Shown here: positions 24,400 through 46,665 of the stretch, piece after piece
Layout: each line of letters opens with the position of its first letter
Position numbering within the stretch: the first letter of the stretch is position 1
Assembly: GCA_964016885.1 (NCBI GenBank)
Contig: OZ024753.1
Coordinates: 372,001-436,000, forward strand
DNA from: Eledone cirrhosa
Lineage: Eukaryota
Reading direction: 5' to 3'
Length of the DNA: 64,000 nt
Notes under the pieces: generated by a model
What the model was told of the DNA's origin: nothing
The model's database searches: none
What the model saw: the letters and a program-made list of their open reading frames with translations, nothing else
Translations under genes and position numbers: made by a program

Positions 24400-24940
24400 T
24401 AAGTATGTACACGTACATATGCATATTATGCATATTAACGGCTGAGTAGCCCAATTTGCATATCGAGTGGGTTAATCGGCCGGGTGCACCGAAAGCGATA
24501 AACGGAAAAAAATGAAACGATATTTCATTTCCTACCCTTAGTACGGCTGTTACTTAAATATAAGTATGTACACGTACATACATATATGTATACAGACGTA
24601 CAGTAGTATGTATATATATATACATACATTCACACATATATATATGCACGTATGAATTCACCGAACATTTATTATAATGCTCGGTGTGTTTGTAAACAAA
24701 CATCCTGTATTAAGCCGTAGTGTCTAGCAACCACCGTTGCTCGTTTGTTCAACACTGACAAAGGAACGCTGTACTAGTTTCAAGCTTATTAGCTATCGTC
24801 AGCAACGTATACCTTCCTGCCAGATTGTTGAACGTATATACTTACCTTATGCATATTAACGGCTGAGTAGCCCAATTTGCATATCGAGTGGGTTAATCGG
24901 CCGGGTGCACCGAAAAACGATAAAGGGAAAAAATGAAACT
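24400..24940 (-). mobile_element. HHR-bearing tandem element, family F (~420-nt monomer, ~1.2 copies)
   Basis: 24431-24525 is repeated at 24851-24940; one HHR per monomer; circularly permuted paralog at 46207-46665. Confidence 0.8.
24767..24807 (-). ncRNA. Minimal type I hammerhead ribozyme (family F)
   Basis: - strand: CGTTG-CTGACGA-T-AGCT(AATA)AGCT-T-GAAA-CTAG-TA-CAGCG. Confidence 0.85.
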
Positions 24941-25056
24941 AGGTGGGACAGTGTAATTATGGTTAAGTCAGGCCTTGCTTTGAAAATGTCCCTCTTCAGA
25001 TGCTGATGGTGGCAGTGGGGGGTTGTGGTGTTGGTGGTGGCGGTGTTGGTGGTCGG

Positions 25057-25792
25057 TGTCCTTAATTGTAAGTTGTAAGGACAAAATGAAAACACGCGCA
25101 CACATAGAACAAACAACCAACCAGTAACATGTAAATAAACAAATAAATAAATGAACATAAACACACACAGACACCCGGATGTGGCGCATGCGCAGACTGA
25201 ACACACAACACACACACAGAAACAAAATGGCGTAGGACAGAACAAAGGAGAGGCACAGAAACAAAGAAAGGAATCCCCAGTCACTGAAGAGGTCACAGAG
25301 TGTGTGACGAAAGAACTATCGTGTGTTGAAACCGATATTGTTATACTTTGGGAGGGTCATGTTGCCAATAAGAAACACACGCACCAGTTGCTTTCACTTC
25401 AATTTATTATAATAAATTTATAATAAATTTATAAATTTATAAATTTCTGGTTGGTTGGTTGGTTCCACAACCAGATAGTTGTTTATATATTGTCATAGTT
25501 CTTTCGTCACACACTCTGTGACCTCTTCAGTGACTGGGGATTCCTTTCTTTGTTTCTGTGCCTCTCCTTTGTTCTGTCCTACGCCATTTTGTTTCTGTGT
25601 GTGTGTTGTGTGCTCAGTCTGCGCATGCGCCACATCCGGGTGTCTGTGTGTGTTTATGTTCATTTATTTATTTGTTTATTTACATGTTACTGGTTGGTTG
25701 TTTGTTCTATGTGTGTGTGTGTTTTCATTTTTTCCTTACAACTTACAATTAAGGACAAAATGAAAACACACACACACATAGAACAAACAACC
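25057..25792. mobile_element. Inverted pair of ~260-bp pLTR-like units with HHR (family J)
   Basis: 25057-25319 and 25495-25757 are reverse complements; each carries a CTGAAGA...GAAA motif. Confidence 0.8.
25492..25534 (-). ncRNA. Minimal type I hammerhead ribozyme (family J)
   Basis: - strand: GTCA-CTGAAGA-G-GTCACA(GAGTG)TGTGAC-GAAA-GAAC-TA-TGAC. The + strand copy at 25280-25319 lacks the 3' stem I strand. Confidence 0.8.
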
Positions 25793-26472
25793 TGCCCCGG
25801 CAGGGATCCTTCCAAGAGGACGTGTCCAAGATGCGCGCAGGACATTGAAACAGTCCTGCACGCAATTGTACACTGCCCGGGCGTAACCGACATGTGGAAC
25901 TATGCAGAACAACTGCTGTCGCGCATGGGACAAATCCAGTTGACTGCCAAGTCCATAGTAAGGATCAAACCGCCAGCCTCTTTCAAAAACCAAAGAGAGG
26001 CGGTTTTCCTCTGTACGGTGGCTATGGTGAAAGAAGTTATATGGTGGACGAGGTTGAGAGGACTGAAGACAGATGCCTTTCTCTCCGGACAACAATTGAT
26101 TCCCTTCTTTAAGTATCACTTTAGAAGGAGAATCAGGGTGGAGAGAGAGGCACTGCACCCCAGTAAATTTACTGAAAGGTGGGTGAATGAAGCGAAAATG
26201 GCCCGAGTGATTGGGCCTTCTCTGTTTATAAGCCTGTAGGTTGAGGAAGAGAGCAAAAGGAAGAAAGGAGCACTTGCACAACACGCTCCTGGAGTTGGGG
26301 GTTGTTCTATCGACGGGGTATTAAACAACCCATTTGTGGCGCCTCCCCCCTATTGGGGATTTCGATTGTTGTAATTGTTTGTTTTTTATATTTTTTACCC
26401 GACTATGTAAAATCCCCGGCATGTCTTTGTATTGCCCCCTTTTCTTGTGCGCCCTTGTGGCTAATAAAGAAA
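25792..26472 (+). mobile_element. 3' end of Tx1/L1-clade LINE (CCHC zinc finger, stop at 26239, 3' UTR)
   Basis: TCPRCAQDIETVLHAIVHCP...W...KEVIWWTR; the UTR ends AATAAAGAAA followed by (TCTA)n. Further 3' fragments at 26500-26751, 27305-27385(-), 29355-29550, 29598-30093, 30122-30481(-), 33793-34049(-), 37104-37445(-) and 57885-57987(-). Confidence 0.85.
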
Positions 26473-27790
26473 TCTATCTATCTACCTACCTATCTCTCTA
26501 ATGAAAGGTGGGTGAAAGTGGCGAGAATGGCCTGTAGGTTAAGGAAAAAGAGGAAGAGGCTACTCACTCTTCGTAATCCTGGAGATGAGGGTTGCACATT
26601 TTTTTTTTCGGGGGTATGTGTTACCCATATGTAATGTCTCCCCTATTGGGGAAAAATTAATTTTAAATTGCATTTGTGATAGTATTTTACACGTTTTTCT
26701 TGTATGTAAACTTCCCTCTTTGTATTTGTCCCCCTGTGGCTAATAAAGAAACATATCTATCTATCTAGAATAGTGTGTGTGGGTGTGCGTGTGTGTTACA
26801 CCGTAAGCACGTGTGCCGAATTCCTCATCAAGGTAATCAGGTGTATTGTTGTTGTACTTTTGCCCTGTATTGCATACTGCACACGACTTCGTTTCATTTG
26901 GTGCTAATGTCATGCTGCACATTGTATATTTCTTCGTCATGCTATCAGTACCAGATCTCCAAGAGAATGTTATCAGCAGTTTTTACTGAGTGACCGATAA
27001 GAGGAATCGAGTGGTTGTGGTGGGCAACAGTGACCCAGATAAAGGTTGAACATATGGGAAGAAGTTTACAGATTTTTATCAGCTTCATAGTGGCTGCAGT
27101 CCTGGTTTCGAATAGGCTCTCCATATAGATGAAGCACTACTGTTGGGCGGGCGAAAATTGGAGGCTGTCTTTGGATCTCTGTGTGCAGTGGGGGTAACAA
27201 ACAGATTCTTACATTGGCTAACACATGTGTGAAGAGGGAATGGGTTAAGATATACAAGGAGCTATCTATCTATCTATCTATCAATCAAGATGGATAGATA
27301 GATATCTTTCTTTATTTGCCACAGGGGCGTACAAAAATAGGACATTACAAGACGTGACGGCGAGGGTTTTACATAAAAATCATATAACTGTGGGTGTGTT
27401 TAGGTAGGTAGGTTTGTACGTAAGTAGAGAGAGAGAAAGAGAGAGAGGGAGAGAGTTCTTTAGCAAACATTGTGAAAAGGACAGTGCAAATTAGGTCATC
27501 CGAACCAAGAAGAAATTATGTTTGGCGAATTAAATGAGATGGCTTAATCGTGAGAGGAAACTGTCTTAAATTCGACTTTTTAGTAGCTTACTACTGCTGT
27601 TTTGTACAAGTACATCATTGCTTTAAACTGTCCTTCTTACTTGCTGTTGATTCACAGCTGTTAAAAAGTTGACATTAGGACAAAGCAAGTGTCACTTCAA
27701 TGAAATGATTTGACACTGAAAGATTGAAAACTGCATTGACTCTATATTACACAACGGCTACAATACACATCAATTGTCGGTTAGATATTC

Positions 27791-28174
27791 CAGACCTGCC
27801 AAATCTCCCCGTCCGACAGGAGATCTCCCACCCCATTTGAGGTGGGTGAGAGATGTCTTCTCTTGTGAAAATGGGTATAGCTTTCATTATGTCGATGGAT
27901 TGGCAGTATCGGTAGAGAGTCGGACGCCATGCTTTGACGCATAGAGTTACGGCCTTTGCCATTCTGAATTCAAATCCTGCCGAGGTTAACTTTGCCTTTC
28001 ATCCTTACGGGGTCGATAAAATAAAGTACCAGTAATGCACTGGGATAATTGCTGGCCTTGTGCCAAAAGTAGAAAATTATGTAAAATATCCCCATTTTGC
28101 CTCATTCCTCCTTATTTTAGGGCACTTTTTTTCATGGTACTCCCCGTTTGGGTTTTTAGAGGTTGGCAGGTCTG
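27791..28174. mobile_element. MITE interrupted by a SINE (~27893-28078)
   Basis: MITE TIRs at both ends; internal full SINE with ATTATGT duplicated. Confidence 0.85.
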
Positions 28175-45379: not shown

Positions 45380-45762
45380 ATATGACCTCGTCACATCAAC
45401 ATCTCGAGTTATTACATCTACGATGTGACCTTCTCACAACATCTCGAGATATTAAATCTACGACATGTCCTAGTCATATCAATATCTTGAGATATTAAAT
45501 CTACGATATGTCCTAGTCATATCAATATCTCGAGATATTAAATCTACGATATGTCCTAGTCATATCAATATCTCGAGATATTAAATCTACGATATGTCCT
45601 AGTCATATCAATATCTCGAGATATTAAATCTACGATATGTCCTAGTCATATCAATATCTCGAGATATTAAATCTACGATATGTCCTAGTCACATCAATAT
45701 CTCGAGATATTAAATCTACGATATGTCCTCGTCACATCAACATCTGACAATGTTAAATCTAC
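45380..45762. repeat. 43-bp minisatellite, ~8-9 copies
   Basis: Unit ATATCTCGAGATATTAAATCTACGATATGTCCTAGTCATATCA; homogeneous in the middle, diverged at the edges. Confidence 0.95.
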
Positions 45763-46144
45763 GAAATTCTTTTTTTTCTTCTTCTTTTAATTATCTTTAA
45801 TTTTTTTTTTGTTTTTTTTTTGTTACTACTAAAGTATTACAGGGCCTCGTGTGTTCTCGAACAATACCCTTTATTTCACATTGCTCCAGTCCACTCAGCT
45901 GTCAAAAATGAGTTGCACTTATAATTCAAGAAGGGTCAACCTCCTCACACAGTGTTGTTCAGAATATTCACGGTACAATACACACATTTGTGGAAAATGT
46001 CCTCAAACAGTTAGTAAACAATGTTTGCTATATACATTATTCATATTTAAAACATAATAAACAATGTAACTTTATAAGTAGAATATTGAAGATGTTTACA
46101 TTTATTTCAACAAATAATATACGAAGCCACATTTTCGGCATTGA

Positions 46145-46206
<62 letters not shown>

Positions 46207-46209
<3 letters not shown>

Positions 46210-46665
46210 AGTATGTATGTCTGTTTACGTACATACATATATGTATACAGACGTACAGTAGTATGTATATATATATACATACATGCACACATATATATAT
46301 GCACGTATCGGTTTACCGAACATTTATTATAATGCTCGGTTTGTTTGTTTGTAAACAAACAAACAGCCCGAATTAGGCCGTGCAGTGTTTAGGCAAACAC
46401 GTCACCTTTTGTTCAACACTGACACAGGAACGATGTACTAGTTTCAAGCTTATTAGCTATCGTCAGCATCGTATACCCTCCTGCCAGATGGTTGAACGTC
46501 TGAAGTATATACTTTCCTTATGCATATTAACGGCTGAGCAGCCTAATTTGCATATCGAGAGACTTCAGTCGGCCGGGTACACGGAAAACAATAAATGGAA
46601 TAGAATGAAACGAAATTTCTTTTCTCACTCTTAGTACGGCACTTACTTAAATGTAAGTATGTATG
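46207..46665 (-). mobile_element. Family F HHR element, one circularly permuted monomer in (TA)n
   Basis: Begins and ends with GTAAGTATGTATGT; HHR at 46431-46471 (CGATG-CTGACGA...GAAA-CTAG-TA-CATCG). Confidence 0.85.

What the first reader, a model, noticed from the sequence alone, without database searches (positions are those of the whole stretch)
24400..46665. Family F: two circularly permuted copies 22 kb apart with a pairing-preserving double change in HHR stem I
Copy 1 (24400-24940) is a ~420-nt monomer plus a partial repeat. Copy 2 (46207-46665) starts at a different register and is terminally redundant (GTAAGTATGTATGT). The copies are visibly diverged, yet the HHR core and stems II and III are identical, and stem I changes from CGTTG/CAGCG to CGATG/CATCG (U-G to A-U). 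Permutation fits a circular or multimeric RNA template, and the covariation fits selection on the fold.
Basis: seen in the sequence. Interest (0 to 1): 0.75.

Follow-up and report, generated by a model that had tools for sequence, protein, structure and literature searches.

The report
Rolling-circle retrozyme with two fixed starts
These are two of about ten thousand copies of a small non-coding repeat with a hammerhead-ribozyme motif, a known kind of element; the copies end at two fixed points, and mirror-image insertions nearly always use each point once and carry the same private mutations in both arms, which likely means a borrowed Penelope-type enzyme copies one RNA circle from both sides of the DNA cut.

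Summary
Both copies, the hammerhead core and the U·G to A-U change in stem I are real. The element is a 420-445 nt non-coding unit with 10,046 exact ribozyme cores in this 3.0-Gb genome: a non-LTR retrozyme, likely moved by a Penelope-like element (PLE). 'Permutation' fails: both copies end at the same 3' register, and copy 1 only looks shifted through a ~270-nt internal deletion. Family-wide, 3' ends fall at two sites ~60 nt apart beside (TA)n; 5' ends scatter. The stem I change is one subfamily event, weak evidence alone. Better evidence lies elsewhere: head-to-head insertions pair one start site with the other (27 of 27; 21 of 22), both arms share a haplotype, and one young insertion has 21 full units on both arms with the same five variants. 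This points to two-sided target priming on one circular RNA, with rolling-circle copying (inferred; no RNA data, cleavage untested, partner PLE not found). Inverted arms with a one-sided 'tail' are in print, and this scan noted such insertions on other DNA; the strict pairing and the single-template signature were not found in my searches.

The parts
24400..24940 (-). Copy 1, subfamily F1 (unit ~420 nt): one-armed, 5'-truncated insertion of about 1.9 units with a ~270-nt internal deletion; 3' end at site S1 against (TA)n
24400..24425 (-). S1 terminal stub of copy 1 and deletion (or template-jump) junction with short microhomology
   Evidence: sequence
24766..24808 (-). Type I hammerhead motif of copy 1: 6-bp stem I with U·G, U·U at the base of stem II, palindromic 2-bp stem III; predicted cut between 24772 and 24771
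   Evidence: cleavage not tested
24498..24570 (-). Internal S1-S2 'tail' interval (about 60 nt) read through in copy 1; the two sites where family copies end
46207..46665 (-). Copy 2, subfamily F2 (unit ~445 nt): one unit plus 14 nt, 3' end at site S1 against (TA)n; 5' end runs into an irregular TA array
46430..46472 (-). Type I hammerhead motif of copy 2 with A-U at the third pair of stem I; predicted cut between 46436 and 46435
   Evidence: cleavage not tested
24309..24399 (.). (TA)n tract, likely target of copy 1
   Evidence: TA flank at 77 of 108 S1/S2 ends against 13 of 52 free 5' ends
46147..46206 (.). (TA)n tract, likely target of copy 2
47223..49191 (+). Neighbouring 5'-truncated coding PLE (RT + GIY-YIG) of an unrelated family; not attached to copy 2; shows the same two-start rule

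Best explanation
Family F is a non-coding, hammerhead-bearing repeat whose copies end at two fixed sites beside (TA)n tracts, and it is likely copied from a self-cleaved and religated RNA circle by a borrowed Penelope-like reverse transcriptase/endonuclease that would prime from both strands of the cut target, once at each start site. Shown: unit structure, copy number, two 3' registers, scattered 5' ends, S1+S2 pairing in head-to-head insertions, shared haplotype of the two arms, multi-unit arms. Inferred: transcription, cleavage (probably as a dimer, given the 2-bp palindromic stem III), circularisation, mobilisation in trans by a PLE protein acting as a dimer, rolling-circle synthesis with strand displacement, and joining of the two cDNA ends in the middle. 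One-armed copies such as the two in the window would be events in which the second arm was short or lost.
For: 3' ends: 52 S1, 56 S2, 13 other of 121 segments in 78 loci taken in chromosome order. Head-to-head insertions with both ends at a site: S1+S2 in 27 of 27 and 21 of 22; end-selected loci gave 27 S1+S2 and 1 S1+S1 (overlapping the first set). Independent choice would give about half. Arms differ at 7.5% of polymorphic columns against 31.6% between insertions; rare variants shared 18.9% (F1) and 6.9% (F2) against 1.5-1.8%. L149: 15+6 full units, all with the same five variants, two of them at 2% or less elsewhere; one arm ends at S1, and the far end, fetched as a test, is S2+(TA)n. Sister family G (310 nt, related ribozyme): 7 of 7 S1+S2, 16 of 16 units identical over both arms in L208, one arm of 27 cores. 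17 of 48 F pairs and young G loci L208 and L211 have arms of which neither contains the other, against fold-back copying. 5' ends show no pile-up at the cleavage site (2 of 56, about 2 expected). Coding PLEs here obey the same pairing (6 of 6; 2 of 2). Purified PLE protein cuts and extends both strands, starts at two internal sites and is predicted to be a dimer (PMC11167929).
Against: No autonomous PLE carrying F-like ends was found. Exceptions to pairing exist: L037 S2+S2, L020 borderline S2+S2, L311 and L316 S1+S1. Units within F insertions still differ at about 11% of polymorphic columns, and L144 has an A-B-A-B pattern that needs a dimer template or local duplication. The ribozyme has U·U in place of the usual G-C at the base of stem II and a weak stem III; only 1 of 9 Xenopus retrozyme dimers cleaved in vitro (10.64898/2026.07.22.740005), and cleavage was not needed for PAc insertion. 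L149 abuts an assembly gap.
Confidence: 0.6

Rival explanations
1. Same two-sided priming, but the template is an uncleaved linear multimer transcribed from a young tandem array; the hammerhead is a passenger.
For: Long arrays exist; PAc uses unprocessed RNA in vitro; ribozyme activity is untested; the A-B-A-B pattern in L144 fits a multimer.
Against: Linear copying can only shorten arrays and inherits their heterogeneity. Old arrays differ by 17-39 bases between neighbours (L148) while young insertions are uniform and carry insertion-specific variants in every unit of both arms.
Confidence: 0.2
2. The template is the cleaved linear monomer, and the enzyme jumps end to end to make concatemers.
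For: Would also give uniform units that cross the cleavage site (inference).
Against: No excess of 5' ends at the cleavage site (2 of 56); junction spacing is exact over 26 consecutive G units.
Confidence: 0.08
3. One cDNA is made and the inverted arm arises by fold-back or self-priming (the antisense self-priming model of PMC3846280); uniform arrays arise later by unequal exchange and conversion.
For: Explains shared haplotypes; 30 of 48 junctions show overlap or palindromy and 31 of 48 pairs are nested.
Against: 17 of 48 pairs are not nested, also in unmutated G insertions; both outer ends sit at fixed sites with TA flanks (34 of 48 on both sides); old arrays are not homogenised.
Confidence: 0.12

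Closest known systems
Metazoan non-LTR retrozymes (Cervera and de la Pena 2020, PMC7229834; three parts of the text and passages read)
   Same: Non-coding tandem units of a few hundred nt, type I hammerhead, GC under 50%, dimers to long arrays; U·U at the base of stem II as in axolotl HHR_Amex2; PLE mobilisation from a circRNA was proposed there.
   Different: Unit slightly longer (420-445 nt); circRNA and cleavage not shown here; insertion anatomy (two starts, head-to-head arms, shared haplotype) is not in the parts read.
Insertions of EN+ Penelope-like elements with inverted pLTR and 30-40 bp tail (PMC3846280 passages; PMC8557442 passages and section 15)
   Same: Head-to-head inverted arm, tail at one end only, (TA)n targets, partial tandems.
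   Different: No ORF; tail about 60 nt; arms of up to 16 (F) or 27 (G) units; pairing counted here as near obligate.
Poseidon element PAc in vitro (Frangieh et al. 2024, PMC11167929; parts 1-2 of 4 read)
   Same: Two internal RT starts that define the tail, AT-rich targets, both strands extended.
   Different: That study saw no strand difference in start site and did not test coupling within one event or a circular template.
Animal retrozymes as non-autonomous PLE derivatives (bioRxiv 10.64898/2026.07.22.740005; parts 1-3 of 5 read; supplements closed)
   Same: Monomer, dimer and multimer loci; co-occurrence with PLEs.
   Different: There retrozymes match pLTRs of known PLEs and arrays are ascribed to local amplification; here no parent pLTR was found and two-armed uniform arrays point to the copying step.

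Membership tests
Non-LTR retrozyme | Type I hammerhead motif in each unit | tested here: met
   Core and three stems present; 10,046 exact cores; no Rfam hit at gathering score
Non-LTR retrozyme | Short non-coding tandem units, dispersed and in arrays | tested here: met
   Units 418-446 nt, monomers to arrays over 10 kb; no attached PLE ORF
Non-LTR retrozyme | Self-cleavage of the transcript | not testable with these tools
   Needs in vitro transcription
Non-LTR retrozyme | Expressed as linear and circular RNA | not testable with these tools
   No usable RNA data; circular-fold energies are below shuffles for one unit each of F1, F2 and G, which is not proof
PLE-type insertion | Head-to-head inverted 5'-truncated arm | tested here: met
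   34 of 87 insertions in the chromosome-order set
PLE-type insertion | Optional tail at one end | tested here: met
   S1/S2 about 60 nt apart, 27 of 27 and 21 of 22 mixed pairs
PLE-type insertion | Target-site duplication | not tested
   Hidden in (TA)n; needs empty alleles
Autonomous PLE | RT + GIY-YIG ORF within the element | tested here: not met
   No PLE ORF attached in the loci searched
Derivative of a named PLE pLTR | Sequence homology to a coding PLE's pLTR | tested here: inconclusive
   None in 19 loci of the neighbouring PLE family or 30 GIY-YIG loci of 10,597 candidates; a 14-nt motif shared with one Neptune-like family's end is only a lead

The most novel reading that the evidence does not exclude
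Each Penelope-type insertion is made by a protein dimer on a single RNA: one subunit starts at S1 on one target strand, the other at S2 on the other, and on a retrozyme circle both roll round to give two opposed arrays. This genome keeps a fossil record of that mechanism, which would explain the PLE tail, the head-to-head inversions and the birth of hammerhead satellites in one step.
Probability: 0.5. Interest if true: 0.72.

Novelty: new member of a known kind. Interest (0 to 1): 0.5.

Why it matters
How PLEs make their tandem and inverted structures is named as open in PMC8557442 (section 15), and reverse transcription of retrozyme circles is a hypothesis in PMC7229834. The pairing rule and the single-haplotype two-armed arrays give both questions a sharp test: barcoded circular templates with purified PLE protein.

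Tried and rejected
Free permutation: rejected. Attachment of copy 2 to the coding PLE at 47223: rejected; a TA tract and another repeat lie between, and there is no similarity to F. Partner search: tblastn of PLE proteins against F loci gave only unattached fragments in 4 loci; 75 free 5' flanks shared nothing at the junction but one nested F piece; 30 GIY-YIG loci held only one independent F insertion. Rfam: nothing. RNA: no RNA holder listed; two guessed-RNA runs gave no or only TA-rich matches; this says nothing on expression. R-scape was not available; pair counts on 9 hand-picked rows gave 7 of 12 pairs with two-sided changes between F and G, but from two or three lineages only, so not a significance test; one search was mis-indexed and is void. 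L220 was a chance match to the ribozyme pattern. An octamer motif 70-80 nt upstream of the core recalls newt satellite 2 promoters (recalled, untested); it is mutated in all L149 units, so I place no weight on it. Literature searches for a coupling rule or circular-template evidence found only the papers cited; the library lacks most subscription papers, including Arkhipova 2006, and supplements were not read.

Full report
Observation. The two copies align at 85% over 402 columns. Both carry, on the minus strand, an identical 31-nt hammerhead core (24802 and 46466): CUGACGA, a 4-bp stem II closed by U·U, GAAA, a 2-bp palindromic stem III and GUA at the predicted cut. The motif does not reach an Rfam threshold and its isolated fold is no more stable than shuffles. 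The window lies in a 3.0-Gb genome rich in AT microsatellites; an octopod-like animal is my guess and was not tested.

Family. The exact core occurs 10,046 times, the reversed control 0 times. Copy 1 belongs to subfamily F1 (unit about 420 nt), copy 2 to F2 (about 445 nt); the best genomic relatives are 95-99% identical. Loci range from fragments to arrays over 10 kb.

Registers. I mapped ends in 78 loci taken from the first core hits on contig C1 (83 fetched, 5 duplicates dropped). Of 121 segments, 52 have their RNA-sense 3' end at site S1, 56 at site S2 about 60 nt further on, and 13 elsewhere; 77 of the 108 site ends abut TA-rich sequence, against 13 of 52 free 5' ends; 5' ends spread over the whole unit. 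Exact end motifs followed by TA occur 3,655 (S2) and 1,559 (S1) times for F1 (the motifs differ in mutability, so the ratio means little). Both window copies end at S1. Copy 1 jumps about 270 nt within the unit 20-26 nt from its end, losing one ribozyme; this is what looked like a second register.

Pairing rule. Of 87 insertions in that set 34 are two-armed and head-to-head. In all 27 with both ends at a site, one arm ends at S1 and the other at S2; 7 had one end elsewhere. One-armed copies split 22 S1, 25 S2, 6 other, so independent choice would give about half mixed pairs. In the best-hit loci (49 of 60 kept) 21 of 22 such pairs were mixed, one was S2+S2, and 9 had an end elsewhere, one of them 4 nt past S2 opposite an S2 arm. 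In 60 end-selected loci, which overlap the first set and hold some duplicates, 27 partners were of the other site, 1 of the same, 11 elsewhere, 21 absent; a further S1+S1 case was picked from the listing (L316). The coding PLE family next to copy 2 (875-aa RT + GIY-YIG ORF intact elsewhere) has its own two ends 43 nt apart and 6 of 6 mixed pairs; a Neptune-like family gave 2 of 2.

One template. Opposite arms of one insertion differ at 7.5-7.6% of polymorphic columns, different insertions at 31.5-31.7%; rare variants are shared at 18.9% (F1) and 6.9% (F2) against 1.5-1.8%. Many single insertions share no rare variant, as expected if most mutations came after insertion. L149 has 15 full units on one arm and 6 on the other, all with the same five variants, two of them at 2% or less in other F1 copies; one arm ends at S1 beside an assembly gap, and the far end, fetched to test the rule, is S2 followed by (TA)n. 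A relaxed pattern found a younger sister family G (310 nt; 3,961 hits, a few of them F variants): 7 of 7 two-armed loci are mixed, L208 has 16 of 16 identical units across both arms, L209, L210 and L211 carry their own variants in all units of both arms, and one arm holds 27 cores at exact 310-nt spacing. Old F arrays are heterogeneous (17-39 differences between neighbours in L148) or of higher order (L145), so arrays are not readily homogenised. Against this: same-arm F units still differ at 11% of polymorphic columns, and L144 alternates two unit types.

Template form. Of 56 end-selected arms 31 cross the predicted cleavage site, 25 exceed one unit, and 2 stop within 8 nt of the cut, about what chance gives; a cleaved linear monomer is thus not the usual template. 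In 17 of 48 mixed F pairs, and in G loci L208 and L211, neither arm is contained in the other, which fold-back copying of one cDNA does not give without later deletion.

Covariation. Among 122 ribozymes in the chromosome-order loci the third pair of stem I is U·G in 67, A-U in 31, G·U in 13, C-G in 4, U-A in 2 and mismatched in 5. On a tree of 158 copies the A-U and U·G states mark two clades joined by a grade of G·U and U·U copies (bootstrap not fully settled). Genome-wide there are 210 U·U and 77 A·G copies, which suggests a tolerated U·U step. So this is one event. Between F and G, 5 of 6 stem I pairs and 2 of 4 stem II pairs change on both sides with the core fixed (9 hand-picked rows); this fits selection on the fold or convergent design, and is not a significance test.

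Partner. No F copy examined is attached to a PLE ORF, and no coding PLE with F-like ends was found. A 14-nt pyrimidine-rich motif at F's S2 resembles one end of a Neptune-like family; such tracts are common at PLE ends here, so it is a lead only.

Mechanism and comparison. The parts match a non-LTR retrozyme (PMC7229834) inserted with PLE anatomy (PMC3846280, PMC8557442). PAc protein cuts AT-rich DNA on both strands, starts at two internal RNA sites that define the tail, and is predicted to be a dimer (PMC11167929). The simplest reading is that a dimer on one RNA primes both target strands, one start each, and rolls round a circle. Ends, pairing and haplotypes are shown; transcription, cleavage, circularity, the dimer and the partner are inferred. 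A tail 'optionally present' on one inverted arm is long known, with self-priming on an antisense template as the published proposal; my eight searches did not find the obligate pairing or the single-haplotype two-armed arrays in print, within a library that lacks many papers. Earlier notes of this scan describe the same head-to-head layout on other DNA.

Verdict. New member of a known kind.

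Noticed in passing
G000:C1:52815533-52820788 (L208), C1:36482102-36490613 (L207) and other loci: Family G: young 310-nt retrozyme with a related hammerhead (U·U-closed stem II, same loop II, palindromic stem III), in two-armed arrays of near-identical units; the cleanest material for testing the model.
   Followed up: partly
window 47223-49191 (+); L171: High-copy coding PLE (17,163 first-look candidates, 93-98% identical RT pieces, intact 875-aa ORFs) with a C-terminal GIY-YIG but no canonical hammerhead found in the 19 loci scanned.
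   Followed up: partly
window 49843-49925 and 56267-56690: A third family with a shorter U·U-closed hammerhead; the first locus is a tiny two-armed insertion with a ~20-nt tail on one arm, the second a pair of inverted arms round another repeat.
   Followed up: no
window 25060-25650: Inverted remnant of another PLE's 3' end (same family as in L131) next to copy 1; the plus arm stops at its own predicted hammerhead cut and joins the other arm tail to tail.
   Followed up: no
window 38536 (-), 38931 (-), 58222 (-), 62902 (-), 63118 (+): Further hammerhead-like cores of other repeat families; the 58222 motif also lies downstream of a GIY-YIG ORF in L253.
   Followed up: no
G000:C12:20410000-20436000 (L145, L146); C28:45626400-45646000 (L147, L148): F units have become long satellites: a higher-order array with a recurring deleted unit, and a heterogeneous array of about 20 kb or more.
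   Followed up: partly
L005, L015, L037, L211, L248 flanks: F, G and several PLE ends often share one (TA)n tract, which suggests repeated nesting in each other's TA tails.
   Followed up: no
window 45378-45764: Nine-copy 43-nt minisatellite upstream of copy 2.
   Followed up: no
window 23013-23609 (-): Fragment resembling the C-terminus of a non-LTR (RTE-like, recalled) ORF; weak DUF6451 match below cut-off.
   Followed up: no
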